From assembly GCA_965369655.1 (NCBI GenBank), contig CBDUQR010000002.1, forward strand, positions 33,857-97,856: a stretch of 64,000 nucleotides of DNA, written 5' to 3'. Origin of the DNA: an uncultured bacterium (GTDB taxonomy: Bacteria > Zixibacteria > MSB-5A5 > JAABVY01 > JAHJOQ01). The notes below the pieces were generated by a model. It worked only from the letters and a program-made list of their open reading frames with translations. It was not told the origin of the DNA and made no database searches. A program made the position numbers and the translations under genes. This document shows positions 5,603 through 50,298 of this stretch, in pieces (within the stretch, counting starts at the first letter, position 1; each line of letters opens with the position of its first letter).

Positions 5603-6817
5603 TTAGCTTGAATATGGATCTTTGCCCTGGAGCTTGTCAGCGTAGAGCGGCGACATGGCAAGAAGCTTCTCGATAATCTCAGGCATGACCGAGATCATGT
5701 AGTCGACCTCTTCCTCACTGTTGTCCTTGCCCATCGAGACTGTGAGCGATCCCGAGCACAACTCCGCCGGAACGCCTACCGCCGTCAGCACATGCGATGT
5801 GACGAGATCTTCTTCGTCCTTACCCCGCAGGTTGGATGCGCACGCCGATCCTGATGCACACATGACGCCTTTCATGTTGAGCATCAGAAGCAGTGATTCG
5901 CCTTCGATGTACCTGATCCAGAAGCTGACATGTCCGGGCAGCCGGTACATCGGATGGCCGGTAAATTCGAGGAATTCGACATTGTTGTCGAGCCAGTCCC
6001 AGAGTTTTGTCTGGAGATTATCGAGGTGCTCGGTTCTTGACGGCGTTTCATCTATGGCGATTTCGCATGCTTTGCCCATTCCAACAATGCCGGGCAGATT
6101 CTCGGTGCCGGACCTGTAGCCCATTTCCTGCATTCCGCCGTCGAGCTGGCACTTGAGCAGGTTTCCGCTTTTCACATAGAGCGCGCCGACTCCCTTCGGC
6201 CCGTACATATTGTGCGACGAGAGCGTCATCGAGTCGACGTCGAGAAGGCGTACATCGATCGGGATGTTGCCGCCAGCCGCCGCAGCATCGGTGTGAAAAA
6301 ACACTCCCATCTCAGATGCAAACTTCCCAATGTCACCGATCTTCTGGACGGTCCCGATCTCGGAGCTTGCAGACTGTACGATCACCATCGCGGTATCGGC
6401 GCGAATCGCTTTGCGAACAGCAATCGGATCAACCCTGCCGTATTTGTCGCATTCGACGAGCGTGATTTCGTAGTCATCCTGCCTGAGTGCGTGGAACTGG
6501 CTGAGTACCGAGAAGTGTTCGATCGACGACGCGACAATATGCCTGCCCTTGTCCCGGTTGGCCTGCAGAAAGCCTTTGATCGCAAGGTTGTTCGATTCGG
6601 TCGCGCCGGAAGTGAAGATCACTTCATCCGATTCGGCGTTGATAAGACTTGCGACCTGCTCGCGAGCCTTGTCGAGCGCCTGCCCCGCCGCAACACCCTG
6701 CTTGTGGATGTGCGACGACGGGTTGCCGTAAAACTCTGAGAAATATGGCAGCATTGCCTCGACAACGCGCCTGTCGACCGGCGTCGTGGACTGGTGGTCG
6801 AAGTATATATTTCTCAT
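5603..6817 (-). CDS. nifS: Cysteine desulfurase (NifS/IscS class V aminotransferase)
   Basis: The 404-aa protein has the N-terminus MRNIYFDHQSTTPVDRRVVEAML and a PLP-lysine region (SSHNMYGPKGVGALY). A NifU scaffold gene follows on the same strand. Confidence 0.85.
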   Translation of the reverse strand: MRNIYFDHQSTTPVDRRVVEAMLPYFSEFYGNPSSHIHKQGVAAGQALDKAREQVASLINAESDEVIFTSGATESNNLAIKGFLQANRDKGRHIVASSIEHFSVLSQFHALRQDDYEITLVECDKYGRVDPIAVRKAIRADTAMVIVQSASSEIGTVQKIGDIGKFASEMGVFFHTDAAAAGGNIPIDVRLLDVDSMTLSSHNMYGPKGVGALYVKSGNLLKCQLDGGMQEMGYRSGTENLPGIVGMGKACEIAIDETPSRTEHLDNLQTKLWDWLDNNVEFLEFTGHPMYRLPGHVSFWIRYIEGESLLLMLNMKGVMCASGSACASNLRGKDEEDLVTSHVLTAVGVPAELCSGSLTVSMGKDNSEEEVDYMISVMPEIIEKLLAMSPLYADKLQGKDPYSS

Positions 6818-6919
6818 GCGCTTAATATATTCGTGATGGTCAAGTAGGGCAGGAGTGCCTCACTCCTGCCGCAACAAGATGGCAGGTGTCGGGGACACCT
6901 GCACTACTCGGTTGGGGAG

Positions 6920-7327
6920 TCAATTTTCTTTCGATTCATCTCCTTCGTGCGATTCCCTGAACTGCTTCAGCGCTTTCGCAAGAGCTTCCTCGGCCATCAC
7001 CGAGCAATGGTGCTTCACAGGCGGCAGGCCTCCGAGAGCATCGATAACCTGACGATTGGTGATTTCTTCGGCCTCTTCGATGGTCTTGCCCTTGATTATT
7101 TCCGTGAGCATAGATGATGCGGCGATTGCGGCGCCGCAACCGAATGTCTTGAATTTCGCATCGATTATTATACCGTTCTCGACCTTAAGGTACAGCCTCA
7201 TCATATCCCCGCATGCCGGGTTGCCGACATCGGCGATCACGTCGGCATCCTTGATCTCACCCATGTTGCGAGGGTTGGTGAAATGCTCCATCACTGTTTC
7301 TGAATATGGATACAACCTGCCTGACAT
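6920..7327 (-). CDS. nifU: Fe-S cluster assembly scaffold NifU/IscU
   Basis: The protein contains HFTNPRNMGEIKDADVIADVGNPACGDMMRLYLKV…FKTFGCGAAIAASS…KHHCSVMAEEALKAA, the three conserved Cys and His of the U-type scaffold. The start is set at the internal Met (MSGRLYPYSETVMEHF), not at the longer six-frame ORF. Confidence 0.85.
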   Translation of the reverse strand: MSGRLYPYSETVMEHFTNPRNMGEIKDADVIADVGNPACGDMMRLYLKVENGIIIDAKFKTFGCGAAIAASSMLTEIIKGKTIEEAEEITNRQVIDALGGLPPVKHHCSVMAEEALAKALKQFRESHEGDESKEN

Positions 7328-7548
7328 CGATCTTACTCCAACATTGACCCACCCGCCGCTGCGCTCTGGGTGGGCTATAGACTGTTGTCTCAGGCGCACG
7401 TTATATGCGCACATTTTGCCAGCACATATTATACACGAAAATTCTCTTTTTCAAAGGGAAAAAGTGTCCGGTTTTGGACATTACAGATTCGGCTGCGCAG
7501 TCGAGGATATCTTCAGCGAGGAGCAGTTCGAGAGGATCGCGATCGGTA

Positions 7549-10500
7549 TCACGCGGGTTGGAGCTTAACTCGATCCAATTCAGTTCTGATTGCCGCTCCG
7601 ATGGTTGCCTTGGTAAAGGGCTTCCTGACATAAGCACCAGCGCCGAGCGCCTGAGCCCAGAGCACCAGCCCCGACTCTGCGAACCCGGATACGATGATCG
7701 CTTTCTGGCCGGGGTGAATCCTGGAAATCAGCCTGTAGGTCTCGGCTCCGTCTATTCCGGGTGGCATGATCATATCAAGAATCAGGAGGTCCTGTGGATT
7801 ATCCTTCAGGAATTCAATTGCTTTCTCGCCACTCTCGACTGCGCTGACGGCGTAGCCAAGCTTCTTCAGGATTCTGGTGGAGACATCACGCTGGACCTCA
7901 TCATCGTCGATAATCAGTATCGTTTCGGTACCACCGACGATCTGCACAGATTCCTGCTCGTCAGCGGTCTTTCGGGTGATAGGGAAGTAGAGGTAGAACG
8001 ATGTCCCTCCTCCGACATTGCTGCTCAAGTCCAGGTATCCATTGTGGTCTTTCATGACTGCATCGACAACGCTCAAGCCAAGTCCTGAGCCCCGTTTCTT
8101 GTCAGCAGTCTTGGATGTAAAGAAAGGATCGAATATCTTCTGGATTATGTCGTCCGGGATGCCGCAGCCGGTATCGGATATGATTACCTTGACATACTCG
8201 CCCTTGGGGACGCGACCGTAGACTATGCTCACATCATCAACATAGTAGTTCTTGGTCTTCACGGTAATCGTTCCCACGCCATGCAAAGCATCCTGAGCAT
8301 TGCACAATAGATTCGAAATGCACCGATCAATCTGGGCAGCGCCTCCCATGACATTCATCAAATCGTCGCAGAGGTCAGTTTCGCAGCTTATCGTGCCGGA
8401 TCGGGTATCTATCACATTGACGGCGTGCGACACAATCCTGTTCAGGTTTATTACTTCCTGATTGTAATGGCCTCTTCTGCCCATGGCCAGGAGGTCCTGG
8501 TTGATATCACTTATCCTCTCCGCCGCGTTTTCGATATCATCAAGGTATATCAAGGCTGGATGGTTGTCCGGGAGTTCATCGCGAATCATATCCGGGTATG
8601 CCATTAACGGAGCCAGCAGATTGTTGAAATCATGGGCTACCTGCCCGGCAATCTTTCCCGCTGTCTCAAGACGTTCAGCGCGAGATTCGAGTGCCCGGAG
8701 GCGTCTGGTCTCGGTGATGTCGATAACATTACCAAACGCACCGATATATCTGCCGTTTTCGTCGAGGCGGGGAGAGACGGATACAAGCAGGATTCTCCGA
8801 TTGTTCTTTGCGGTGGTGATTTCGAGTTCATACTTGGAGGATTCCCCTCTCAGTCGGCATGCGGTTTGTTGCAGGATTATCTCCTTCTGGTCCGAATCAG
8901 CATAGTCCAGAAGAGACTTTCCGATCATCTTTTCAGGATCATCTTCCTCGAAGATACTCGCGCATGCCGGGTTGCAGAAGGTGACCTTTTCGTTCTCATC
9001 TACGACAACGATTCCCTCCAGCAGCGAAGAAAACAACTCGTCGTACTGGCTCTCCGACTTCTTCAGTGCATCCTCCACCTGTTTGCACTCGGTGATGTCG
9101 ATGCCCAACCCGATCAGATAAGTCCTCCCTTCGATCACCACTCTTCTACCGGTGAAGTAATACGGAGTTTTCATTCCCTCCTTGGTAACAAGAAGGTTCT
9201 CCATTGAACTCCAACCCTTATCGTAAACCTCCTGCATTCTTCTCGCGCATTTATCCCTCTCCGGTCCCTCTTCGAAGAAGTCCAAGAACGCCATCAGTTG
9301 GAGTTCTTCCTCTGAATATCCAGTAACTTGCGCCCAATTGTCGTTTCTTGACTGGAGAAGTCCGCTGTCTTTTTCAATGACATAAGAGAGCCCCGGCATA
9401 CTTTGGATAATGTTGGATGAATAATCCCGCTCGGCCTGCAGCAGGGTCTCCGCCCGCTTGCGCTCGGTGATGTCAAATACCCTCGCCTGAAGCACTTCCT
9501 TACCATTCAGCTCCATCTTATCAAGCAACACTTGGGCAGGAAAATCAGTACCGTCCAAACGTCGGTGTAAATGCTCAAACCGCGCGCTGCCTTCTTTTAT
9601 GGCAAGTGCAATATTGTTCTTGGCATAACTCATCGAATCAGTGCCGTCCGGCTGGGTCGGAGGCGAGAAATCGGCCGGATGCCTGTTACAAAATTCCTCT
9701 TTGGTGGCACAACCGAAAAGTCGCAGCGTCGCATCATTGCAATCAAAAAAACCTTTCTCATCGAGGAGCATTATCGAATCGCTAGACGAATCGTACAGGA
9801 CCTGGAGCTTGATCTTACTCTCGCGTATTGCCTCCTCCGCCCGTTTGCGCTCAGTGATGTCCAGCAGGATTCCGATGGAGCCGACAACCTGACCGGAATC
9901 GTCGCGAATAGGTACGGCATAGTCGCTGATCCACTTGACGTCCCCAGATGAGGTTTGGATGCGAACATCGGCTCTGTACTGCGCAGTTTCACCCCGCCGG
10001 AAGACTTCGCCGTAGGTGGCGTGATCTTCCGGACCGTCAGGATCCGTTACCACCTGTTCCATAATTATCTCGCTGTAAGCCTGTGGGGAGAACTCTTTCT
10101 GCGCAATACCAATCAGGTTTTCAATCCCGGCTCCGACGAAGACATACTTGCCGCTGGCCAGATCGAACTGATATGGAACTCCGCTCGCATTCTCGATGGT
10201 GCTTCGGTAAATCGATTCCGATTCACGCAGCGCCCTCTCCGCCTGTTTGCGCTCGGTGATGTCGCGAGCAATTCCGCACAGACCGATGATCTTGCCGGAG
10301 GTGTCGTACATCGGCACTTTGATGGTATGGAAGGTTATCTGAACCCCTTGAATAGGCTTGGTGTGTTCCTCCTCAACGGTCTCCCCACCAAGAACGCGAG
10401 AGTCCACTTCCCTGATGTGGGAGCCTGCTTCCGTTCCGAAGATATCTTCATCTGTCCGACCGATCAGCTCAAAGACCGAAAGTTCGAAAAGCCTCTCCAT

Positions 10501-27168: not shown

Positions 27169-27251
27169 CCCTTAAATCCATCAAGAATGAATGCCTGAAT
27201 TGATCTCCGGATCAGTTTGTCTTCCCAGTATAGAAGTGTCCGGATAAAGCA

Positions 27252-27282
27252 AAAGGAGCGACCCGTTAGGGCCGCTCCTTTG
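27252..27282 (-). terminator. Rho-independent terminator of 27332-30541 (this copy has one stem mismatch)
   Basis: The plus strand reads AAAAGGAGCGACCCGTTAGGGCCGCTCC. On the minus strand the hairpin is followed by a T-tract. The terminator of the paralogue (30847-30878) has the same sequence. Confidence 0.5.
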
Positions 27283-27331
27283 ATTTACTCAGCCTGATAC
27301 AGTCAGTATCAGAGCCGTAGTGGACATGTTA

Positions 27332-30300
27332 TTAGCAGCAGGCAGCCGGATCGGGCGCTGGTCCTCCACCGAAGATGTAGTTGATCAGATACACTACATC
27401 ATCGATGTCGATACCGCCCAAACCGTTGGCATCACCGCAACAGATATGATCCACAGGCTCTGGTCCGCCACCGAAGATATAGTTGATCAGATACACCACA
27501 TCATCGATGTCGACACCACCAGAACCGTTAGCATCGCCCGAAACGCAATCGGACACAGGCTCACAACCCGGACAGTCAATGTTAGCACAGATCCAGGTCT
27601 TACCCTTATCGATGAGATTTTGCAGATCTGAAAGGCCTGTAAGGCTCGAGGCCTTCACCTTGCAGTATACGACGCACTCCTCTGCTGCAAGTGTGAGATC
27701 CTGAGCGATGACGTACACCGAATTGAGGTCCTCTACTGAATCCGAGGCGAGAAATCCGGTATGTGTAGCCAACAGATTGCCTATTTCGGCAGGTACATAA
27801 CCGGAGTTATCATACACCCAGGTGTCGTTTTCGAGGACGATGGCACCAACGATATCACCACAGAAGGATGCGCCGCCATAGTAGTCCTCGTAAGGCGAAC
27901 TGCCGGCGGGACCATACTGGTAGACCATCTGTCTGTCTTCATCGACTCCGGACTGGTTGTCACTGCCGTCTTCGCCGTCCGGTATATCCCAGTCGATACC
28001 TTCACCGAGATGGATGGTGATAGCGGCATCGGTGTTGTTGCAGACTTCAACGCGCTCGATCAGTACACAGACATCCGGGTGCTTCGGCACGTACCACTCA
28101 ATCACACCGGTGATGGCTGAGTCTGGAGTAGCCCACTCGCCGTGAGCGTAGTCGTAGTTGACATCATCCACAAGTATCAGCGAGTCTAAAGCGACGAAGC
28201 TGACTTTGCTGTTGGAGCCGTCGAACATCGAGAAGAATGTCTGAGAGACGTCGTCAGCATATGTCACGATGATACCCTCGTCGTACATTGGCGCGAACTC
28301 TTCGAGGAACCAGAACATATTGCCGAGATCACTGCGTTGAGCAACACCGGCTCTCGGGACGTTCCAGACGCCGATAGACCAGCAAGCGGTCGACAGAATT
28401 TCGTATTCCGGCGGGAAGTACTTACAGGCGACCAGAAGGTTGACAGGAATGTCGACTTGATCGGAACCTTCAGTACTGGTCAGACTGACACTCACGTTAC
28501 CGATTTCGGCGGTTTCGTTGGCCACCGGGCCAACGTCCACGGTGATAGTGGCTACGGTATTGATACCAGCCGTCACCGTACCGGTACCGCCGGTGATGCT
28601 CATCCAGCTTTCAGTTTCGCTTACAATGTAGCCGATCTCGACGTTACCGGTGTTGACGATAACGACATCAAACGACGTCGTAGTCGGCATCGTGCAGTCG
28701 GTACCGCTCGTGGGAGAGATTATCACAGACTGGTCCTCAGGAGCGACCGAATAGCTGAAAATGGCTTCCGGAGTGAAGCATGGGTACGTGGCGTAGAGAA
28801 CCTCGTTCTCGGTTTCTTCTCCCTCATCGTGAACGAACGAGCCAGCGTCATGGTCGCTGACGTAGAAGAGGTGCAGTACACCAGACGAGTATTTGGCCAT
28901 CGATCCGAAGTTCTCGTTGTGGCATGCACCGGCCACACAGCCGTCGGAGTATGTATTGGTCAGGTTGACATAAGTGCCGAGCTTGACCGGGACGCCGCTG
29001 CCAGCGGTCGTCAGTGTGTCGAATTCGTCCAGGGTGCCGTCGGGACCCCATGTGATGCCGCCATCGCTCGATGCAGTCAGGCAGAATTCGCCGTTTGCAT
29101 AACCATTTGCGGAGCAATCACCGTTGTTGTCACCACGGGGCCAGGTTCCAAAACGAGTAAACGAAACGTACATGTTGCCGTCGCATTCGGAGATGTTGAT
29201 TCTGGAAATGGCGCCGAGACCACCACCGATACCGCCGCTGCAGAATCCAGTCGGGGAGGTAGCGTCGAGAACGCGCGATATGACGTTGCTGGACTGATCC
29301 CAGTGCCACATATTGCCGCGGAACAGCGGCTGGCAAGGATCATCTTCTCTGAAATCAGGAGTCAGCCAAATGATGTGAAGGTCCCCGTCAGAGTCGTAGA
29401 CGGCTGATATTTCCGATTGAGCCTTGTGCACAAAATTGATGGGGTCAAGTGTTCCTCCCTCGGTGTAGTCAGTGATGTTGACTTCCGAACCCCAGGTGGC
29501 GCCGCCGTCAGTCGATTCCATGTAGACTATGTCGTGTTGTACCCACTGGAAGTTATTGAGATCGCCGGCAGGGTTGCCATCGCCATCACAACTGTTTCTC
29601 GGGTCACCCTGCTCGTAGAAAGGTTTGCACCAGATGAGGGCCACGTCGTCCGATGTCGGAGCGGGATCAGAGCGAACAGTAGCATTGACCGTATGGGAAG
29701 CATCGATGTAGAGGCCGAGCGTGTCGGTAGAGGTACCGGGGCACTCAGCGAGATCACCGTCAATATACCGATAGTAGATGATCGATTGTATCGACTCGTC
29801 AGGAAGAGCCACCGGCGGCGACTCGGTTGAGACTATGTGCAGTATCTCTTCGCCGGTTGTCAGTTTCTGGAACTCACCTACCGGCCAAATGTATGCATCA
29901 CCTTCATTTGTGCCGGACATTTCTCCCTGGCAGTTCGGTGGACCCGGCGCCCAGCGACTCACGTCAGGAAGGGCTTGAGGAAAGTAGCCGGACGGTGGCA
30001 TCATATCTATGCCCGACCTTGTGGAATAGAGCGCCGAACCCGGGCCTGCATGCCAGAATCCGACCGCAACACCGGCGTCGGTGACGTCAATAGTGGTATA
30101 TCCGCCATTGTTGGCAGATGCTGAATTCCCGGTGTGGCCCCACACCCATGCGCTGGGAGTAGTGATTTTGCGAGAGTTGTAATATATTCTCCGAAAACCG
30201 CTATGATCAGTCGGATGGCCTCTCATCCAGAGAAAGTGAACATATTCCAAACCGCTACCCTGGAAGTTCGGCGTGTAAGCGATCTGCCTCCCCATCGTGC

Positions 30301-30846: not shown

Positions 30847-30878
30847 GAAAAAAAGGAGCGGCCTGTTAGGGCCGCTCC
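30847..30878 (-). terminator. Rho-independent terminator of 30915-34154
   Basis: GGAGCGGCC-TGTTA-GGGCCGCTCC is a perfect 9-bp stem. It is preceded on the plus strand by an A8 run, which is a T8 run after the hairpin on the minus strand. Confidence 0.55.
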
Positions 30879-30914
30879 CATTTGGTCTTCATCTGTTGCC
30901 TGATTCGAAATCAA

Positions 30915-33900
30915 CTAACAGATATCAACGGGCGGAGGTCCTCCACCGAAGATGTAGTTAATCAGGTAGACTACGTCATCGATGTCGACGCCACCAGAAC
31001 CATTTGCGTCGCCGCAGCAATTATCCTGCACAGGCGGAGGTCCGCCACCGAAGATGTAGTTAATCAGATAGACTACGTCATCGATGTCGACACCGCCACT
31101 GCCGTTTGCGTCACCAGGCACGCAGTCGGGGCCACTGCTAACACAGCCGGGACAGTCGATTTCCGGTGTGTCGGCGATGAATTCCTTGCCCTTATCGATG
31201 AGATTCTGCAGATCCAAAAGGCTTGTAAGGCTCGAGGCCTTCACCTTGCAGAACGTGGTGCAGGCCTGTGCATCGAGGGTAAGATTCTGAGCGATGACGT
31301 ACACCGAATTGAGGTCCTCGGCTGGGTCCGGATTTGGGGCGACAAATCCGGTATGTGTAGCCAGCAGATTACCTATGTCGGCAGGTATGTAACCGGAGTT
31401 CGGATACACCCAGACATCGTTTTCGAGGACGATGGTACCGACGATGTCAACGCAGAAGGATGCACCACCGTGGTAGTCCTCGTAAGGCGAACTGCCAGTG
31501 GGACCATGCTGGTAGACCATCTGTCTGTCGGTATCGACTCCGCAATTGTTGTCAGATCCATCATCTCCATCCGGGAAGTCCCAGTCGATACCTTCACCGA
31601 GATGGATGGTGATAGCAGCATCAGAGTTGTTGCAGACTACGACGCGCTCGATCAGCACACAGTACACCGGGTGCTTCGGCGTGTACCAGTCGATAGTGCC
31701 GGTGATGACAGAGTCCGGAGTGGCCCACAGGCCATTGGCCTGTTCATAGGTGGAATGGTCTGTAACAGTCAATGGTCCCATGGCTATGAAGCTGGCATCA
31801 CTGTCAGAGCCGTCGAACATCGAGAAGAATGTCTGAGAGACATCCTCAGCGTATGTCAAGATGAGACCCTCGTCATACATCGGAGCAACATCCTCGACAA
31901 ACCACCACATGTTGCCCTCGTCATTTCTCTGAGCGAGTCCGGCTCTCGGAACGTTCCAGACGCCGACTGACCAGCAGTGTGTCGAGATCAGGGCATATTC
32001 GGGCACATAGTACAGGCACTCGACATGCGCCGTGACATCAACCACAATTCCCGATGCACTGCCAGCGGAGCTGGTCAGGTCGATTGTTACCGTCCCAGGG
32101 TATTCGCCCTCGGCCCCGATCGGACCAACTGTCATGACGACATCAGCCGTTGGATTGATGCCGGCAGTGATTGTACCACTACCGGAAGCAGGATTCAACC
32201 ATGACTGGTCGGATGTGAACGTATAGTTGATCGGAACGTTTCCTGCGTTCGTGATCGTAATAGTGAAGTCGTCGGTGTATTCGATAGTACAGTCGGGTAC
32301 GCCATTCGGTGCGATCGGCACGAACGCGCTTGATGGATCAACTCTGTAATCGAACGTACCTTCCGGCTCGAAGCACGGATATGTCATGTACATATATGCG
32401 TTATTTGTGTATTCACCTTCCGCATCCACAACGACGGCTGCGCCGGGATGGTTGTCGTCAATGTACGCGATATGTACGACGTCGGTCGAGTACTTGGCCA
32501 TGCTTGACCAGTGTTCGCTGTGGCAATCGCCAGCCACGCAATCGTCAGTGCGAGTGTTGGTCACGTTGACTGCCGTGCCAGTTTTCACTGCGGTACCTGT
32601 TCCTCCGGTCGTGAGGTAGTCGTATGGAGGAGCGGCAGCGTCCGGACCCCACGTGATACCACCGTCGCTGGAACCTGTCAGGAAGATGTCACCGTTGAGA
32701 AACATCAGATCCGAGTAGTCTCCACCAACACTGTCATGAATAACCATGGCAGGGTCCATTGTTGTGTCAGGATGAGCGCCGAAACGGGTGAACGAAACAT
32801 AGAGCCTCTCGTCACACTCGGAGATATTCGGCTTGCTGGTCATTATGTTCCACACACCGGTGTTCGAGAAAGTACCACCGGGTCCTCTGAAGAGGAAGGG
32901 CATCGTGGCGTCGTAGACCGGGGTGATTTCCTGGTTGAAATCATCCCAATGCCACATCATGGTGGTATAGTAGCTTCCTTCACACGCACCGGCAGCGGGC
33001 CATACCGGAGTATTCCAGACAATGTGCAGTGTGCCGAGATGGTCATACAGCGCAGTCACATCTGTATACGCCATGTACTTGATCTCACTGATCGCGAGAG
33101 TGCCGCCGTCTGAGTAATTGGTGATGTTGGTCGGTGTCGCATCCCAGGTCACGCCGCCATCATTGGATTCGAAGTAAGCGACGTCGTGCTGCCACTGTGT
33201 GTACTCGCAATCATTATTGGGATGGTTAGGATCAGGATACATATCCTTTAGATACACGATGGCGACCTTATCCGAACCCGGGTCGGATCGGACTACCGGG
33301 GTGATGTTCTGGTCCTCGGTCATCCAGCGACCGAGAGTATCCGTAGATGTACCCGTGCACTCGTCCGTGGTATCGTTCACAATACGGTAATAGATGAAAG
33401 ACTGTATCGTGGCTGCCGGGGGTATAGGATCCCCACCCGGGTTCTCGGTGGATATGACGTGATAGACGTCATTTCCGTCGACATTGTCATACTCTATGAC
33501 CGGCCAGAGGTATTCGCTTTCCAACTCATAACCATCCTCACCTTCGCCCTCGCAGTTTGGCGGAGCCGGTTGCTGAAGCTTGGAGAACGGGGTGTTCGGC
33601 GGCATTAGGTCCTTGCCAGCATATGTGAAGTAAAAACCGGCGAGGCCCTCATGCCAGGAGGCGATTGCGGCGCCTTCGCTATTGACGTCGATTGTCGTAT
33701 ATCCGCCATTAGCGCCGGAGAATGATGTGCCGGCGTTATCATCGCCGTGCCTGTGAATCCATGCCTGCGGGGCACTCAACTTTCTTGCGTTGTAACGGAT
33801 ATACCTTGTCGCGCCAGGGGCGTTCCTCCACATCCAGACAAAGTGAATATATGGATGCCCATTTAGATCTGGGGTGTAAGCAATCTGTCTGCCCATTGAG

Positions 33901-45343: not shown

Positions 45344-45769
45344 TTAGAACGGCAGATCGTCATCTTCGCCCGGTGTGGCTTCGGGGAAGTCGGCTTCAGC
45401 CGGAGCTGTCTGGTCGAATCCGGACGTTGATGAATCGCCTTTACGTCCGAGAAACTCCATTTTCTGGAGCACCACTTCGGAAGTGTACCGTTTGTTGCCG
45501 TCTTTATCCTCGTAGCTGCTGTTGTCGATGCGTCCTTCGATGTAGACCGGACTGCCTTTGGACAAATACTCATTTGCGACTTCGGCATGCCGGCCCCATG
45601 CGACGATACGGTGCCATGTGGTTCTTTCCTGCAGCTCGCCGCTCTTGTCCTTGAATTTCTCTGAAGTCGCTATCGAGAACTTGGTGACCGCAGTGCCGTT
45701 CGGAGTGTATCTCATCTCCGGGTCGCGCCCCAAATTGCCTATCAGAATTGCTTTGTTGACAGACGCCAT
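45344..45769 (-). CDS. ssb: Single-stranded DNA-binding protein
   Basis: It has an OB fold (MASVNKAILIGNLGRDPEMRYTPNGTAVTKFSIATSE…TTWHRIVAWGR…) and an acidic C-terminal tail (DDDLPF). Confidence 0.9.
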   Translation of the reverse strand: MASVNKAILIGNLGRDPEMRYTPNGTAVTKFSIATSEKFKDKSGELQERTTWHRIVAWGRHAEVANEYLSKGSPVYIEGRIDNSSYEDKDGNKRYTSEVVLQKMEFLGRKGDSSTSGFDQTAPAEADFPEATPGEDDDLPF

Positions 45770-45865
45770 GTAACCTCCTGTTTTGTTCGATACTGTGGGA
45801 ATATACTACAGTAGAGGTTGGTTGTCAAATTAGTTGCTCGATATTTGAAAGTCTTGACCATATTC

Positions 45866-45925
45866 AGAACCCACCCGAAGCTGCGCTTTGGACAGGAAGG
45901 GGTTTCGATCTACTCAACTATTAGT
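45866..45925. repeat. Composite short repeat (family B): AACCCACCCGAMGCT and GGACAGGWAARGGTTTCGAYCTACTCAACT
   Basis: The first motif also occurs at 37699-37713, the second at 50149-50182. The second motif overlaps the stop codon of the 45910-46686 gene. Confidence 0.4.
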
Positions 45926-46686
45926 TCCCTAGCGAAAAGATCTTTCATCATCTGATTTGTTGCGTCAATTGACAGAGACAGCAGGTCTTGTGCTTGATCC
46001 AAGTCATACCGCGCATCTGGATGTTGAGTTGGATTGCGGAAATTTATCCGGATGTTATCGAGATGATCTAATAGTGACTTCTTTGGGACGTCACTGCGTT
46101 TTCTAAGGTGCATTATCATCGCGTTCCACATCAGTGATTTAGTGCGACCACGCTTTACAATCGTCGTATAGTAATACCGGAGTGCCCCTTCAGTGCCACG
46201 CATAAGATGGAACGCTGCTGCTGTTGAGAGTGCAAAACCAATACAATGACAGGCCTGCGCAAAGTCAAACTGTGTAATTGTAGGCAATGTTGAATAGACG
46301 CCTTTGGCGAAGAGATTCCCTGGGCTATATAACAAATTGTCTAAGTCAAAACGCTTCGGCGTGACAATATACGCGTAACGGAGTTGCAACTCAGCATCAA
46401 GAGTCTTGTCGAGTTGTTCGATAGCTTCGTGGACCTCTGTCTCTAGATCGCCATCCATTTTCGAATCTACAGGCAGTTTTTTGACTCGACTTTGAATCAA
46501 GCGAAGCATCCCTGCTGCCTGATTCGTTACCTGAAGATTCAGACCGTCAGCATAACTAAGGAACTCGTTGATCCGATCCAGAAGGGAATTACTTTCTCCA
46601 TGCACAGTCATTCCCTTCTTCGAGAATCGAAGGATGTTGTAATTGTACCCGAATGCAAAATAGTCGTATATTGGGATACGCTTCAT
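45910..46686 (-). CDS. Hypothetical protein with a C-terminal HEPN-type Rx4H motif (Abi-like)
   Basis: The 258-aa protein has an AT-rich gene (~43% GC against ~55% nearby). The motif is NIRINFRNPTQHPD. It lies in an islet bounded by dispersed repeats. Confidence 0.5.
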   Translation of the reverse strand: MKRIPIYDYFAFGYNYNILRFSKKGMTVHGESNSLLDRINEFLSYADGLNLQVTNQAAGMLRLIQSRVKKLPVDSKMDGDLETEVHEAIEQLDKTLDAELQLRYAYIVTPKRFDLDNLLYSPGNLFAKGVYSTLPTITQFDFAQACHCIGFALSTAAAFHLMRGTEGALRYYYTTIVKRGRTKSLMWNAMIMHLRKRSDVPKKSLLDHLDNIRINFRNPTQHPDARYDLDQAQDLLSLSIDATNQMMKDLFARELIVE

Positions 46687-46864
46687 TAGTAGTTCCTCAC
46701 TTTCGCCTCATCGAAATCGTAATTTTAAAAAACAATAGCTCCGTCTTCAGGAATCCAGATAATTAAAAGTATATTGCAAGTGGCTTTGGTAGTCAAGCGA
46801 TTGGTGCGAAATTCGTTCACGGTATGAGTAGGGGTGAGCTCGCAGCGGAGTGAATGGTTCAGTT

Positions 46865-46936
46865 CTTGTAGGTCAAGCGCGCTCGCGCTTGACGATTAGA
46901 AAAGATGTCAAGCGGTCAGGCCGCTTGACCTACAAG
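46865..46936. repeat. Nested palindromic element (family A): a 15-bp perfect terminal inverted repeat CTTGTAGGTCAAGCG / CGCTTGACCTACAAG enclosing two inner hairpins
   Basis: It reads CTTGTAGGTCAAGCGCGCTCGCGCTTGAC…GTCAAGCGGTCAGGCCGCTTGACCTACAAG. Related elements occur at 49426-49645. Confidence 0.55.
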
Positions 46937-46992
46937 ACTGCGGATATCTGTAATCTCCTTGACTTGAATGCTCGCCTCGGTATACTTCTGTT

Positions 46993-47676
46993 ATGAGTGA
47001 TGGAAAATTATACATAGTCGCGACGCCTATCGGTAATCTCTCTGATGTTACTCAGCGAGCTGCGGACACGCTTCGTTCAGTCGATATCATCGCATGCGAA
47101 GATACAAGGCATTCTGGCAAATTGCTCAAACATCACGGTATCTCTGCGAGACTGATTCAGTACCACGATCACAACAAAGATCATTCCGCGCCCGGCATCG
47201 TCAAGATGCTTCTCGAAGGACACGATGTCGCGCTAATCACCGACTCGGGCACGCCGGGCATCTCTGATCCGGCATTTGTACTCGTGCGACTCGCGCTGGC
47301 CGATGACATAGAAATTATCACCATTCCAGGCGCCTGCGCAGCTATCGCAGCGCTCACCATCTCGGGACTGCCGATGGACAGGTTTGCGTTCGAGGGTTTC
47401 CTGCCTGTGCGAGTTGGTAGACGAAGAACGAGACTCCTGAGTGTCAAGGATGATCCGCGCACGCAAGTGTTCTACGAATCGCCTCATCGGCTTGTCAAGG
47501 TGCTCGCCGCTATGAGGGAAGTATTCGGAAACAGGAATGTGGCGATCGCGCGGGAATTGACCAAGATCCACGAAGAGGTTATCAGGGGGACGTTCGACGA
47601 CATCTTAGACCGGTTCAGCGAGTCAAAACCACGAGGGGAATTCGTCATCATTGTCGAAGGAAACACCGGCAAATAG
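46993..47676 (+). CDS. rsmI: 16S rRNA (cytidine1402-2'-O)-methyltransferase RsmI
   Basis: LYIVATPIGNLSDVTQRAADTLRSVDIIACEDTRHSGKLLKHHGI…is the tetrapyrrole-methylase-fold signature of RsmI. Confidence 0.85.
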   Translation: MSDGKLYIVATPIGNLSDVTQRAADTLRSVDIIACEDTRHSGKLLKHHGISARLIQYHDHNKDHSAPGIVKMLLEGHDVALITDSGTPGISDPAFVLVRLALADDIEIITIPGACAAIAALTISGLPMDRFAFEGFLPVRVGRRRTRLLSVKDDPRTQVFYESPHRLVKVLAAMREVFGNRNVAIARELTKIHEEVIRGTFDDILDRFSESKPRGEFVIIVEGNTGK

Positions 47677-48606: not shown

Positions 48607-49422
48607 ATGTATCCTGAGATAGTCAAATTAGGACCGATAGTTATCCGCTCGTATGGATTGATGTTGGCGTTGTCGTTCTTTGCTGGTGTGCTGTTGGTGA
48701 GATATCGAGCAAAGAAGATCGGCGTCAATCCCGAGTTTGTGGTGAATTTATCGTTTATCGTCATTATTGCAGGAGTCATCGGGGCAAGGCTGTTCTACGC
48801 ATTTTATCACTGGTCGGATTTTGCCGGAGATATGCTTGATATCTTCAATCCTTTCGGATCATCTGAAGGTTTTGGAATTGCCGGTCTGAACATGCAGGGT
48901 GGATTGTTGCTCGCATTTCTGTCGGCTGTCGGTTACTGCCTGATCAGGAAGCAATCGATTGCGGTAGTATTCGACCTGTTTGCTCCGGCGGTCGCCCTTG
49001 GGATATTCATCACCCGAATCGGATGCTTCCTCAATGGCTGCTGCTTTGGTACGGAATGCGATTTGCCGTGGGCGGTTCGTTTCCCGGAGGGGAGTATTCC
49101 GAATTCGCACCTTGGCGATGTTTACATACATCCGGCGCAGTTGTATTCGTCGCTTTACGGGCTTTTGTTGTTTTTCATTCTGTCTTTTGTCGAAAAGAAG
49201 AAGACTTTTGTGGGATTGACATTCTCTCTGTTTCTCATAATCGAGGCAGTGTTTAGATACGCGATAGAATACGTTCGCTACTATGAGTATCAGATGAAGG
49301 TTGAGCTTTTCGGTGTGATGTTTACCTACAATCACATTGTCGCGATTCTGATGTTCCTGGCTGGCTGGGGATTGCTTCTATTCTTTCGCGCAAGAGTCGG
49401 ATCGAAGACACCTGCCGTTTAG
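48607..49422 (+). CDS. lgt: Prolipoprotein diacylglyceryl transferase
   Basis: Lgt signature blocks are present (GPIVIRSYGLMLALSF…RLFYAFYHW…) in a protein with 7 TM helices. Confidence 0.85.
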   Translation: MYPEIVKLGPIVIRSYGLMLALSFFAGVLLVRYRAKKIGVNPEFVVNLSFIVIIAGVIGARLFYAFYHWSDFAGDMLDIFNPFGSSEGFGIAGLNMQGGLLLAFLSAVGYCLIRKQSIAVVFDLFAPAVALGIFITRIGCFLNGCCFGTECDLPWAVRFPEGSIPNSHLGDVYIHPAQLYSSLYGLLLFFILSFVEKKKTFVGLTFSLFLIIEAVFRYAIEYVRYYEYQMKVELFGVMFTYNHIVAILMFLAGWGLLLFFRARVGSKTPAV

Positions 49423-49660
49423 ACAGTAGGTCAAGCTCACTTGGAGCTTGACTCTTCACACGTCACGCCCCTCTTCGTCAAACTCAAGACAGAGCAAGTG
49501 GGCATGTTTGTGGGCGGCAGACGTCCTCGTCTGCCCCATCCAGCGTTGACATCGGCAGATGTGGACATCTGCCCCGCACAAGTAGGTCAAGCTCACTTGG
49601 AGCTTGACACTTCACACGTCATGCCCCGAGTGGGCATGACCTACTACTCTGCGACCTAAT
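49423..49660. repeat. Highly structured intergenic region: two ~46-bp direct repeats of a family A element plus several perfect hairpins
   Basis: The direct repeats are 49426-49471 and 49581-49626 (GTAGGTCAAGCTCACTTGGAGCTTGAC(T/A)CTTCACACGTCA(C/T)GCCCC). The second is completed by GAGTGGGCATGACCTAC. Perfect hairpins are GGCAGACGTCCTCGTCTGCC and GGCAGATGTGGACATCTGCC. Confidence 0.5.
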
Positions 49661-50002: not shown

Positions 50003-50298
50003 AGAAGCAGGTTACCTGTTTCACGTCCTGAGAACAAGTTTGAAAGTTGAGGTCAAATCTCGGAGTCCGCGAAGCGAACGGAGAGACTTGACAATCCTTT
50101 TTCCTTTTCGCGCTTCGCGCAAGATGTCGAAACCACCCTTCGCAGGCTCAGGACAGGTAAAGGTTTCGACCTACTCAACTGTCAAGACGTTAAATAGTTA
50201 TGAGAACTGACATGGGTTGTTCGGGACGGCGAAACAGCTTGACGTTATGTTTTGAGGCTCGTATATTTCTCAACTTAATGGAAGTGGTGTTAGCTAGT

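What the first reader, a model, noticed from the sequence alone, without database searches (positions are those of the whole stretch)
45866..46990. AT-rich islet encoding a HEPN-motif (Rx4H) protein between ssb and rsmI, flanked by dispersed repeats
The 258-aa ORF has markedly lower GC than its neighbours. It carries a C-terminal NFRNPTQHPD motif that fits the Rx4-6H catalytic signature of HEPN RNases, which is typical of Abi-type abortive-infection effectors and toxin modules. Its stop codon lies inside a copy of a dispersed 33-nt motif, and the other flank holds a nested palindromic element (46865-46936). Composition and repeat context point to horizontal acquisition. A lone HEPN protein could be a toxin whose antitoxin or partner is unannotated, for example in the 300-nt upstream gap.
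Basis: inference. Interest (0 to 1): 0.55.

Follow-up and report, generated by a model that had tools for sequence, protein, structure and literature searches.

The report
Acquired stand-alone HEPN RNase gene islet
A 1.1-kb AT-rich insert between two housekeeping genes carries a single, horizontally acquired gene for a predicted HEPN-type RNA-cutting enzyme from a large uncharacterised family, most likely a one-gene anti-phage suicide or dormancy switch; this is a fairly ordinary kind of find.

Summary

Three related genomes, including one about 90% identical in DNA, have ssb and rsmI directly adjacent. The window-specific segment is 45838-46947 and sits between the two intact native promoters. 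It is therefore an acquired islet.

The flanking repeats are host REP-type elements, a GTAG tag plus a hairpin. One supplies the gene's stop codon. The other is an inverted REP doublet.

No antitoxin was found. There is no conserved neighbour in 78 genomic loci, no credible small ORF and no upstream repeat array. Family genes average 8.5 GC points below their flanks, occur across bacteria, archaea and CPR, and a few lie in prophages.

Best reading: a stand-alone HEPN RNase with an N-terminal four-helix bundle, probably a single-gene abortive-infection effector. The defence role is inferred, not shown. It is a new member of a known kind, of modest interest.

The parts
45838..46947 (.). Window-specific islet (1,110 bp, GC 0.45). 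It replaces 154 unrelated bp in the close relative L090.
   Evidence: blastn of window against L090: homology ends at 45837 and resumes at 46948. GC.
45910..46686 (-). 258-aa stand-alone HEPN-family protein gene (ATG 46686-46684, TAG stop 45912-45910).
   Evidence: 491 homologues at E<=1e-3. 1,599 50%-identity representatives. Model pLDDT 90.
46384..46686 (-). N-terminal domain (about residues 1-101): generic up-down four-helix bundle of unknown role. It is replaced by other N-termini in roughly a fifth of the top family representatives.
45931..46299 (-). C-terminal HEPN domain (about residues 130-252), including the invariant helix motif T155..F159-H160..R163..E166.
46021..46038 (-). Rx4H catalytic signature R217-N-P-T-Q-H222 (CGC AAT CCA ACT CAA CAT).
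   Evidence: Sequence. Invariant in 34 aligned homologues. Kept in 246 of 250 family proteins of at least 200 aa.
46768..46796 (-). Predicted sigma-70-type promoter of the HEPN gene (TTGACT-17-TATACT, 10 of 12 matches).
   Evidence: This is a consensus match only. Promoter-like hits in the scanned region are not enriched over shuffles (4 found, 2.6 expected).
46693..46698 (-). Shine-Dalgarno-like GAGGAA, 6 nt before the ATG.
   Evidence: Read from the sequence.
45865..45919 (-). GTAG-tagged REP-type element, family 1, degenerate copy (GTTGAGTAG + ATCGAAACCCC...GGGTTCTG). Its GTTGAGTAG provides the last two codons and the TAG stop of the HEPN ORF.
   Evidence: The stem is weak (fold z about 0 to -0.8).
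46864..46937 (.). Inverted doublet of GTAG-tagged REPs, family 2 (GTAG+GTCAAGCGCG..CGCGCTTGAC on the + strand at 46868-46893, and GTAG+GTCAAGCGG..CCGCTTGAC on the - strand at 46933-46907). REPIN-like. It lies between the HEPN and rsmI promoters.
45800..45828 (-). Native ssb promoter (TTGACA-17-TATATT). Both hexamers are conserved in L090. The islet starts 10 nt upstream of it.
46959..46986 (+). Native rsmI promoter (TTGACT-16-TATACT), conserved in L090. The islet ends 12 nt upstream of it.
50126..50180 (-). Second, intact copy of the family-1 REP (GTTGAGTAG + GTCGAAACC-loop-GGTTTCGAC), in another window-specific intergenic segment (50040-50228).
49412..49650 (.). 239-bp cluster of family-2 REPs and GGCAGACG..CGTCTGCC hairpins. 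The whole cluster is absent from L090.

Best explanation
What it is. The 1.1-kb segment 45838-46947 is a horizontally acquired single-gene islet. It sits in the promoter-free spacer between the divergent housekeeping genes ssb and rsmI. Its one gene has its own predicted promoter and ribosome-binding site. It encodes a two-domain protein: an N-terminal four-helix bundle and a C-terminal HEPN domain on the periphery of Pfam DUF4145.

How it probably works (inferred). Like other HEPN enzymes, the protein probably dimerises so that two Rx4H motifs (R217, H222), together with the conserved H160/R163/E166 helix, form a metal-independent endoribonuclease site. It needs no partner gene. The most likely role is a latent, self-contained abortive-infection or anti-mobile-element effector. 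In this reading the N-terminal bundle holds the RNase off until a phage or plasmid cue is met, and RNA cleavage then arrests the cell. The characterised single-protein DUF4145-HEPN defences RAZR/PD-T7-4, BxaP and Ishtar are the precedents.

The flanking repeats. They are the host lineage's own GTAG-tagged REP elements, which populate variable intergenic spots. They are not part of a cassette.

Shown: the fold, motif conservation, the insertion, atypical composition, absence of a conserved partner, and patchy cross-domain distribution with a few prophage copies.

Inferred: RNase activity, dimerisation, latency and trigger, and the defence role.

My confidence is about 0.85 for an acquired catalytic HEPN RNase and about 0.45 for the defence/Abi role.
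For: HEPN identity.
- Rx4H is invariant in 34 homologues, along with T155, F159, H160, R163 and E166.
- Rx4H is kept in 246 of 250 family proteins.
- 13 of 34 homologues hit DUF4145, 6 hit HEPN and 2 hit Csm6_HEPN.
- One homologue passes the DUF4145 gathering score over the full profile, which spans the motif.

Acquisition.
- L090 (about 89-92% nt identity), L091 and L092/L093 keep tolB-pal-ybgF-...-ssb|rsmI-PAP2-lgt synteny without the gene.
- The ORF has the lowest GC and GC3 in the window.
- Both native promoters are intact at the borders.
- The closest homologue is only 63% identical, and the named closest hits are from other phyla.

Stand-alone and accessory.
- No neighbour family is shared beyond lineage synteny in 78 loci.
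- Family genes average 8.5 GC points below their flanks in 71 loci, and 89% are lower (Wilcoxon p = 2e-11).
- The family is found in many bacterial phyla, CPR and archaea.
- All 34 members match phage family phrog_32483.
- Five IMG/VR contigs carry homologues. Genes for terminase, portal, tape-measure and CI-like repressors lie within 6 kb.

Precedent. RAZR, BxaP and Ishtar are single-protein DUF4145-HEPN defences (PMC13017515, PMC10799925, bioRxiv 10.64898/2026.07.06.735840).
Against: - The window protein matches no PADLOC, Pfam or NCBIfam model. Family members get only stray sub-threshold PADLOC hits.
- Direct neighbours are mostly housekeeping genes. Only a handful of 145 are defence-like: R-M methylases, one DRT reverse transcriptase, mads and PbeA.
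- In seven Nitrospirota genomes the gene is stably syntenic next to purT. That fits a domesticated function as well as it fits defence.
- Foldseek against PDB gives no significant hit (best E 0.8), although its top hits are HEPN domains.
- The N-terminal domain is a generic bundle with no recognisable sensor feature.
- There is no direct evidence of expression, RNase activity, toxicity or phage protection.
Confidence: 0.5

Rival explanations
1. Orphan toxin of a toxin-antitoxin system. The HEPN RNase is neutralised by an antitoxin that is unlinked, very small or an RNA, as the first reader suggested for the upstream gap.
For: HEPN toxins of HepT/MntA and RnlA/LsoA type are among the best structural matches. 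In one close homologue locus (L010) the next gene encodes a RES-domain toxin, so some copies sit among TA-like genes.
Against: No conserved neighbour of any kind appears in 78 loci, and no MNT nucleotidyltransferase is among the neighbour families. The median upstream gap is 97 nt. The window's gap has only unsupported 21-48-aa ORFs, no Rfam match and no tandem repeats. No consistent upstream repeat arrays are seen in 74 homologue loci.
Confidence: 0.12
2. Accessory RNA-metabolism enzyme. This would be a non-defence HEPN RNase used for RNA processing, turnover or stress-induced dormancy, acquired horizontally but serving host physiology.
For: Most neighbours are housekeeping genes. Synteny with purT is stable across seven Nitrospirota genomes. 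Sequence conservation is strong (mean column identity 49%). In this window it sits between ssb and the rRNA methyltransferase gene rsmI.
Against: The family is very patchy: 130 confirmed matches in a scan of 185,579 species genomes, made with two strict peptide patterns. It is absent from close relatives. It is persistently AT-rich relative to hosts. It is present in prophages and matches a phage protein family. N-termini are swapped on a conserved catalytic core, which is typical of conflict systems.
Confidence: 0.15
3. A moron or selfish gene carried by mobile elements. It would benefit a phage or other element (superinfection exclusion, addiction or anti-defence) rather than the host, and here it is a stranded remnant.
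For: All members match phrog_32483. Five IMG/VR contigs carry homologues near CI-like repressors and structural genes. Another homologue lies beside an IS1-like transposase and a P63C phage-domain gene.
Against: No phage, integrase or transposase genes lie next to it in the window. The islet is a single gene bounded by host REPs. There is no match in 50,697 GenBank phage genomes and only 2 in 72,556 plasmids. The gene is intact and identical in contigs from at least four samples.
Confidence: 0.1
4. Non-catalytic HEPN domain acting as a ligand-binding or adaptor module, as in the substrate-binding domains of nucleotidyltransferases.
Against: R and H of Rx4H are near-universally conserved, together with flanking N-P-T and P and the H160/R163/E166 helix. 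That is the signature of active HEPN RNases. There is no adjacent or fused nucleotidyltransferase.
Confidence: 0.05

Closest known systems
RAZR / PD-T7-4 (E. coli; PMC13017515)
   Same: It is a single-gene system of about the same size. It has a C-terminal divergent DUF4145-type HEPN RNase with essential R and H residues, and an N-terminal non-catalytic domain that governs activation. It works by abortive infection without a partner gene.
   Different: RAZR's N-terminus is a Cys4 zinc ribbon. Here the N-terminus is a four-helix bundle, and the protein has only two cysteines. Neither the window protein nor 34 family members hit a PD-T7-4 model in PADLOC. The RAZR motif spacing (R146...H154) differs from the strict Rx4H here. 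Activation by ring-shaped phage proteins is unknown for this family.
Pfam DUF4145 (PF13643), HEPN superfamily (Anantharaman et al. 2013, PMC3710099)
   Same: Helical HEPN core with Rx4-6H. 13 of 34 homologues match it, and one passes the gathering score over profile positions 5-85 of 88. DUF4145 proteins are modular, carry varied N-terminal domains, and occur in conflict systems and dsDNA viruses.
   Different: The window protein itself gives no DUF4145 hit even at E<=10. The typical DUF4145 contexts (fusions to REase or helicase, R-M operons) are not seen. I first guessed a type I R-M operon context, and Pfam scans of the neighbours refuted it.
HepT/MntA (HEPN-MNT) type II/VII toxin-antitoxin and RnlA/LsoA toxins
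   Different: No adjacent MNT or other antitoxin gene is present in the window or in 78 homologue loci. The protein is about twice the size of HepT because of the extra N-terminal bundle.
BxaP and Ishtar1/2 (single-protein DUF4145-HEPN defences; PMC10799925; bioRxiv 10.64898/2026.07.06.735840)
   Same: Stand-alone proteins that combine a DUF4145-like HEPN domain with a second domain of unclear function. They are sporadically distributed.
   Different: In those proteins the HEPN domain is N-terminal, and the partner domain is a HEAT-like or beta/alpha domain. Here the domain order is reversed and the partner is a four-helix bundle. Sequence relationship was not tested because I had no sequences for them.
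GTAG-tagged REP / REPIN elements mobilised by RAYT transposases (PMC3733652, PMC2817692)
   Same: Both flanking repeats consist of a GTAG tetranucleotide followed by a short palindrome. One is an inverted doublet. They are intergenic and vary between close relatives. A Y1_Tnp (RAYT-like) gene is present in the related genome L091.
   Different: Copy number cannot be judged from 64 kb. No RAYT gene is in the window. Family-1 loops vary from 3 to about 40 nt, which is unusual for classical REPs.

Membership tests
HEPN superfamily | Conserved Rx4-6H motif at the catalytic position | tested here: met
   R217-NPTQ-H222. Invariant in alignment A1. Present in 246 of 250 family proteins.
HEPN superfamily | Up-down alpha-helical bundle fold resembling solved HEPN domains | tested here: met
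HEPN superfamily | Metal-independent endoribonuclease activity, and a dimer with a composite active site | not testable with these tools
   Needs biochemistry or a multimer structure prediction. Only monomer prediction was available.
Pfam DUF4145 (PF13643) | Score at or above the gathering threshold (23.1 bits) | tested here: not met
   The window protein has no hit at E<=10. Among homologues, 13 of 34 hit at E<=1. Of 10 examined, one passes (P0110, 25.4 bits) and three are below threshold. The family is therefore peripheral to DUF4145, not a member sensu stricto.
HEPN-MNT (HepT/MntA) toxin-antitoxin | Adjacent minimal nucleotidyltransferase (antitoxin) gene | tested here: not met
   The neighbours in the window are ssb and rsmI. 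No nucleotidyltransferase of that kind, and no recurrent partner, appears among the +/-1 neighbours of 78 loci.
Type III (ToxIN-like) toxin-antitoxin | Array of tandem repeats (RNA antitoxin) immediately upstream of the toxin gene | tested here: not met
   TRF finds nothing in 45700-47100. Only scattered low-score repeats occur upstream in 74 homologue loci.
RAZR / PD-T7-4 | N-terminal Cys4 zinc ribbon, and a match to the system's profile | tested here: not met
   No PADLOC hit for the window protein and none to PD-T7-4 for 34 members. The only cysteines are C146 and C148. The N-terminal model is a four-helix bundle.
Named Abi-type HEPN families (AbiU2, Swt1, MAE_28990, AbiV, ApeA, etc.) | Match to the corresponding Pfam or PADLOC profile | tested here: not met
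   The window protein has no such hit at E<=10. None is among the 25 families most often matched by the 34 members. A profile-profile (HHpred) comparison was not available.
Horizontally acquired genomic islet | Absent from the orthologous site in close relatives | tested here: met
   L090 (RsmI 91% identical, DNA about 90% identical), L091 and L092/L093 all have ssb and rsmI adjacent (intergenic 267, 71 and 147 nt) within conserved synteny.
Horizontally acquired genomic islet | Atypical base composition and codon usage | tested here: met
   GC z is -2.8 and GC3 z is -2.7, both rank 1 of 50. Codon-usage log-likelihood z is -1.2, rank 7 of 50.
Defence-island gene | Neighbourhood enriched in known defence genes | tested here: inconclusive
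   Only a few of 145 immediate neighbours hit PADLOC models (R-M MTases, DRT RT_UG21, mads, PbeA). Most are housekeeping genes. No background rate was computed.
REP / REPIN (GTAG-tagged) | GTAG tetranucleotide abutting a short imperfect palindrome, intergenic, sometimes in inverted pairs | tested here: met
   46868-46893 (+) and 46933-46907 (-) form an inverted doublet. Further copies lie at 49425-49451 and 49581-49607. Family 1 copies lie at 50180-50126 and 45919-45865. The grammar is that described in PMC3733652 (title and abstract).
REP / REPIN (GTAG-tagged) | High copy number in the genome and a cognate RAYT gene | not testable with these tools
   Only 64 kb of this genome is available. 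No RAYT is found in the window by tblastn. A Y1_Tnp gene is present in relative L091. Family-1 elements occur at 2-3 copies per about 10 kb in some metagenome contigs.

The most novel reading that the evidence does not exclude
The gene represents a large, still unnamed family (at least 1,599 clusters at 50% identity) of stand-alone 'four-helix bundle + DUF4145-like HEPN' RNases. The family spreads between bacteria, archaea, CPR and temperate phages. It would act as a new single-gene abortive-infection or anti-plasmid system, with a swappable N-terminal bundle serving as the trigger sensor. A more speculative addition is that REP/RAYT activity at variable intergenic spots helped capture or fix the gene; the REP now supplies its stop codon.
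Probability: 0.35. Interest if true: 0.55.

Novelty: new member of a known kind. Interest (0 to 1): 0.35.

Why it matters
If the defence role holds, this adds a widespread one-gene HEPN effector that current defence catalogues miss: the window protein matches no PADLOC, Pfam or NCBIfam model. The locus also offers a clean natural before-and-after pair, because the islet is present here and absent in a relative about 90% identical. That pair could be used to study how such genes land between promoters without disturbing housekeeping genes. As it stands, this is one more uncharacterised HEPN family, which is a crowded category. No new principle is implied.

Tried and rejected
1. Type I R-M operon context (hsdM/S - HEPN - hsdR, like PrrC). 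I suspected this from neighbour sizes. It was rejected: the about 392-aa upstream genes are PurT in Nitrospirota, and neighbours are otherwise heterogeneous.
2. Conserved partner or antitoxin. All-against-all clustering of the +/-4 neighbours in 78 loci found only lineage synteny. The 46687-46992 gap holds no supported small ORF. Rfam finds nothing in the window or the gap. No tandem arrays were found.
3. Cassette with terminal inverted repeats or a target-site duplication. No inverted or direct repeats link the two islet ends. The two flanking repeats belong to different REP families.
4. The 55-nt motif as a structured RNA or terminator. Fold z-scores are 0 to -1.3, which is not significant.
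6. Downstream 250-260-aa ORFs in L095 and L011 as paralogues. hhalign probability is below 1%.
7. Sequence-only PDB searches with the protein and with the profile gave only noise.
8. The AlphaFold database (afdb50) was not available for a fold search.
9. The organism's taxon was not determined. The closest named RsmI relatives are only 54-57% identical (Nitrospinota, Latescibacterota, Nitrospirota).
10. RAYT gene in the window: none found.
Full report
OBSERVATION

The ORF 45910..46686 on the minus strand encodes 258 aa and contains ...DNIRINFRNPTQHPDARYD.... R217 and H222 are encoded at 46021-46038.

I made simple ORF calls for the window. Among 50 ORFs of at least 100 aa, this one has the lowest GC (0.445, against a mean of 0.521 with sd 0.027, z -2.8) and the lowest GC3 (0.459, z -2.7). 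Its codon-usage log-likelihood ranks 7th lowest.

The palindrome at 46864-46937 has perfect 16-nt outer arms and two inner hairpins. It folds far better than shuffled sequence (z about -7.5).

The motif around the stop codon has a second copy at 50151-50180, where none is expected by chance. Similarity extends to about 55 nt. The one caveat is that 'dispersed' means two copies within this window.

WHAT THE PROTEIN IS

Direct scans of the window protein against Pfam, PADLOC, NCBIfam and PDB sequences found nothing meaningful. The protein nevertheless belongs to a large family:
- 491 homologues at E<=1e-3 in the word-indexed search, all unnamed or 'hypothetical' and none with a precomputed Pfam domain.
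- 1,599 representatives at 50% identity in the exhaustive search, 147 of them at E<=1e-30.

An alignment of 34 diverse members (41-62% identical to the query) shows invariant R217, N218, P219, T220, H222 and P223. It also shows an invariant helix motif T155..F159-H160..R163..E166. Among 250 family proteins of at least 200 aa, 246 keep Rx4H. Of the other four, one reads RNPTQHT, which still fits Rx4H, and three end or change sequence at the motif.

Scanning each of the 34 members separately gave DUF4145 for 13 (best E 1.5e-5), HEPN (PF05168) for 6 and Cas_Csm6_HEPN for 2. One member exceeds the DUF4145 gathering score, with the profile covered end to end across the helix motif and the Rx4H.

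About a fifth of the top 150 representatives align only from residue about 75-97 onward, yet have similar total length. The phage family phrog_32483 likewise matches residues 89-250. The conserved core is therefore the C-terminal roughly 170 aa, and the N-terminal bundle is exchangeable.

IS IT AN ACQUIRED ISLET?

Yes. The RsmI protein of the window has a 91%-identical relative on a JGI contig (L090). There, ssb and rsmI are adjacent and divergent, with 267 nt between them and no HEPN gene.

Two more distant relatives (RsmI 68% and 66% identical; L091, L092/L093) keep the block tolB-pal-TPR-170aa-TMEM260-ssb | rsmI-(PAP2)-lgt-DUF4430-... They also have ssb and rsmI adjacent, 71 and 147 nt apart.

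blastn of the window against L090 (about 89-92% identity) shows that homology stops at 45837 and resumes at 46948. The window therefore has 1,110 specific bp where L090 has 154 unrelated bp.

The borders fall 10 nt upstream of the ssb -35 box (TTGACA-17-TATATT, 45828-45800) and 12 nt upstream of the rsmI -35 box (TTGACT-16-TATACT, 46959-46986). Both promoters are conserved in L090. The insert thus occupies the spacer between two divergent promoters without damaging either.

Inside the islet, the gene has its own promoter-like site (TTGACT-17-TATACT, 46796-46768) and a GAGGAA 6 nt before the ATG. These are consensus matches, not evidence of expression.

The identical protein, in the same context, occurs on contigs from four other samples. 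The gene is therefore established in this population. The closest other homologue is only 63% identical, and the named closest hits come from other phyla: Thermodesulfobacteriota, Eisenbacteria and Acidobacteriota. No donor can be named.

THE FLANKING REPEATS

Read on the minus strand, the motif at the stop codon is GTTGAGTAG followed by a degenerate hairpin (ATCGAAACCCC...GGGTTCTG). The copy at 50180-50126 has the intact hairpin GTCGAAACC...GGTTTCGAC.

A scan of metagenome contigs for the 18-nt core returned 25 stretches. That number could arise by chance in a collection of this size (my own rough estimate). However, about ten of them share the full grammar GTTGAGTAG + GTCGAAACCCC - loop of 3-40 nt - GGGGTTTCGAC. 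Several contigs hold two or three copies, and in some the element lies next to GGCAGACG..CGTCTGCC hairpins, which also occur in the window at 49516-49573. None of these contigs is otherwise similar to the window.

The palindrome at 46864-46937 is two inverted units of GTAG + GTCAAGC...GCTTGAC. The same unit occurs at 49425-49451 and 49581-49607.

A GTAG tag next to a short palindrome is the grammar of GTAG-tagged REP elements (PMC3733652), and inverted pairs resemble REPINs.

The 239-bp REP cluster 49412-49650 is absent from L090. The segment holding the second family-1 copy (50040-50228) is not homologous to L090 either. A RAYT-like Y1_Tnp gene lies in the related contig L091, but none is in the window.

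I conclude that the repeats are the lineage's own mobile intergenic REPs, not the ends of a cassette. No terminal inverted repeats or target duplications link the islet ends. The HEPN ORF's last two codons and its stop come from the REP's GTTGAGTAG.

PARTNER, CONTEXT AND DISTRIBUTION

The upstream gap has only unsupported ORFs of 21-48 aa, no Rfam match and no tandem repeats.

A scan of one genome per species (185,579 species) with two strict peptide patterns confirmed 130 relatives, of which 80 loci were fetched. They come from many bacterial phyla, from Patescibacteria, and from archaea (Borrarchaeum, Methanoregulaceae, Nitrosarchaeum).

I called ORFs in these loci, clustered the +/-4 neighbours, and scanned the +/-1 neighbours with Pfam and PADLOC.
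- The only recurrent neighbour is purT, in seven Nitrospirota genomes. That is lineage synteny.
- Otherwise the neighbours are heterogeneous and mostly housekeeping.
- A few are conflict genes: RES, R-M methylases, a DRT reverse transcriptase, mads, PbeA and an nSTAND NTPase.
- My early guess of a type I R-M operon context was wrong.
- Median gaps to the flanking ORFs are 97 nt upstream and 81 nt downstream, which leaves no room for a conserved partner.

In 71 loci the family gene is on average 8.5 GC points below its flanks, and lower in 89% of them (Wilcoxon p = 2e-11).

The family is nearly absent from sequenced plasmids (2 of 72,556) and from GenBank phages (0 of 50,697). Five IMG/VR contigs carry it within 6 kb of terminase, portal, tape-measure and CI-like repressor genes.

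MECHANISM

Shown:
- A confidently predicted HEPN fold with an invariant Rx4H motif and an accompanying conserved helix.
- A single-gene islet, apparently carrying its own expression signals.
- Recent acquisition.
- No partner gene.
- Behaviour of an accessory, horizontally mobile gene across the family.

Inferred from established knowledge of HEPN enzymes (Anantharaman et al. 2013, PMC3710099; RAZR, PMC13017515): dimerisation forms a composite, metal-independent RNase site. The enzyme is kept latent, probably through the N-terminal bundle or its oligomeric state. A phage or plasmid cue activates it, and the infected cell arrests.

RAZR/PD-T7-4, BxaP and Ishtar show that single proteins with DUF4145-type HEPN domains can work this way.

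I put about 0.85 on 'acquired, catalytically competent HEPN RNase' and about 0.45 on the defence/Abi role. The rivals are a non-defence accessory RNase (0.15), an orphan toxin with an unseen antitoxin (0.12), a moron or selfish gene of a mobile element (0.10) and a non-catalytic HEPN (0.05).

COMPARISON AND NOVELTY

[quoted passage not shown] It lies on the periphery of Pfam DUF4145 and is not a member by Pfam's threshold.

It is not a HepT/MntA module, because there is no MNT gene. It is not RAZR, because there is no zinc ribbon and no profile hit. It matches none of the named Abi HEPN families.

The domain combination (four-helix bundle + DUF4145-like HEPN) and the family as a whole appear uncharacterised. 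The kind of system, a stand-alone HEPN effector on an acquired islet, is well known.

VERDICT

This is a new member of a known kind, with interest about 0.35. The hidden-antitoxin idea does not. The 'dispersed repeats' are host REP elements.

Noticed in passing
window 49412-49650: A 239-bp intergenic block absent from the about 90%-identical relative L090. It holds two direct 47-nt REP units (GTAG+GTCAAGCTC..GAGCTTGAC), an inverted unit and two GGCAGACG..CGTCTGCC hairpins. It looks like a recent REP/BIME-type insertion downstream of lgt.
   Followed up: partly
L112:4606-5610; L113:1060-3482; L121:6947-9276; also L104, L109, L110, L116, L124, L101: The element GTTGAGTAG + GTCGAAACCCC-(3-40 nt loop)-GGGGTTTCGAC recurs, often 2-3 times per about 10 kb, in metagenome contigs with no other similarity to the window. 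This looks like a GTAG-tagged REP family with very variable loop length that is shared across lineages.
   Followed up: partly
L091:9809-10333: A Y1_Tnp (RAYT-like) gene is inserted after the inositol-1-phosphate synthase gene in a relative's otherwise syntenic region. No homologue is found in the window by tblastn.
   Followed up: partly
L051, L058, L059, L062, L063, L069, L071 (about 6800-8800 in each): In seven Nitrospirota genomes the HEPN-family gene lies immediately downstream of purT on the same strand. This is stable lineage synteny, in contrast to the sporadic placement elsewhere.
   Followed up: partly
L010:8902-9678 and L011:8825-9616: In the two closest genome-borne homologue loci, the next gene encodes a RES-domain protein (L010) or a 264-aa protein with its own RTPIRH (Rx4H-like) motif (L011). 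The latter shows no significant profile similarity to the family. These may be small clusters of toxin-like genes.
   Followed up: partly
L005:2273-5671: Upstream of homologue P0035 lie four consecutive same-strand ORFs of 219-282 aa. Three have no Pfam hit and one has a weak DUF5677 hit. This may be an island of uncharacterised accessory genes.
   Followed up: no
window 27251-28045 and 30851-31637: Two roughly 800-bp segments are 80-86% identical and 3.6 kb apart, each preceded by a similar GC-rich hairpin (AAAAGGAGCG.CC.GTTAGGGCCGCTCC). They are probably duplicated paralogous genes with terminator-like hairpins.
   Followed up: no
window 8703-10287: Internal repeats of 43-48 nt (..TTTGCGCTCGGTGATGTCG..) recur every about 375-400 nt. 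This suggests a coding region with four tandem repeated domains of about 130 aa.
   Followed up: no
window 50040-50228: The divergent intergenic region between the DUF4430-like gene and the CDP-alcohol phosphatidyltransferase gene is not homologous to L090, although both flanks are 79-92% identical. It holds the intact family-1 REP.
   Followed up: partly
NZ_AP026896.1:4075117-4075710 (hit H1): An Aeromonas caviae record of 4.9 Mb, listed in the plasmid collection, encodes a 40%-identical relative of residues 1-204 with no annotated feature under the match. It may be an unannotated or truncated family member.
   Followed up: no
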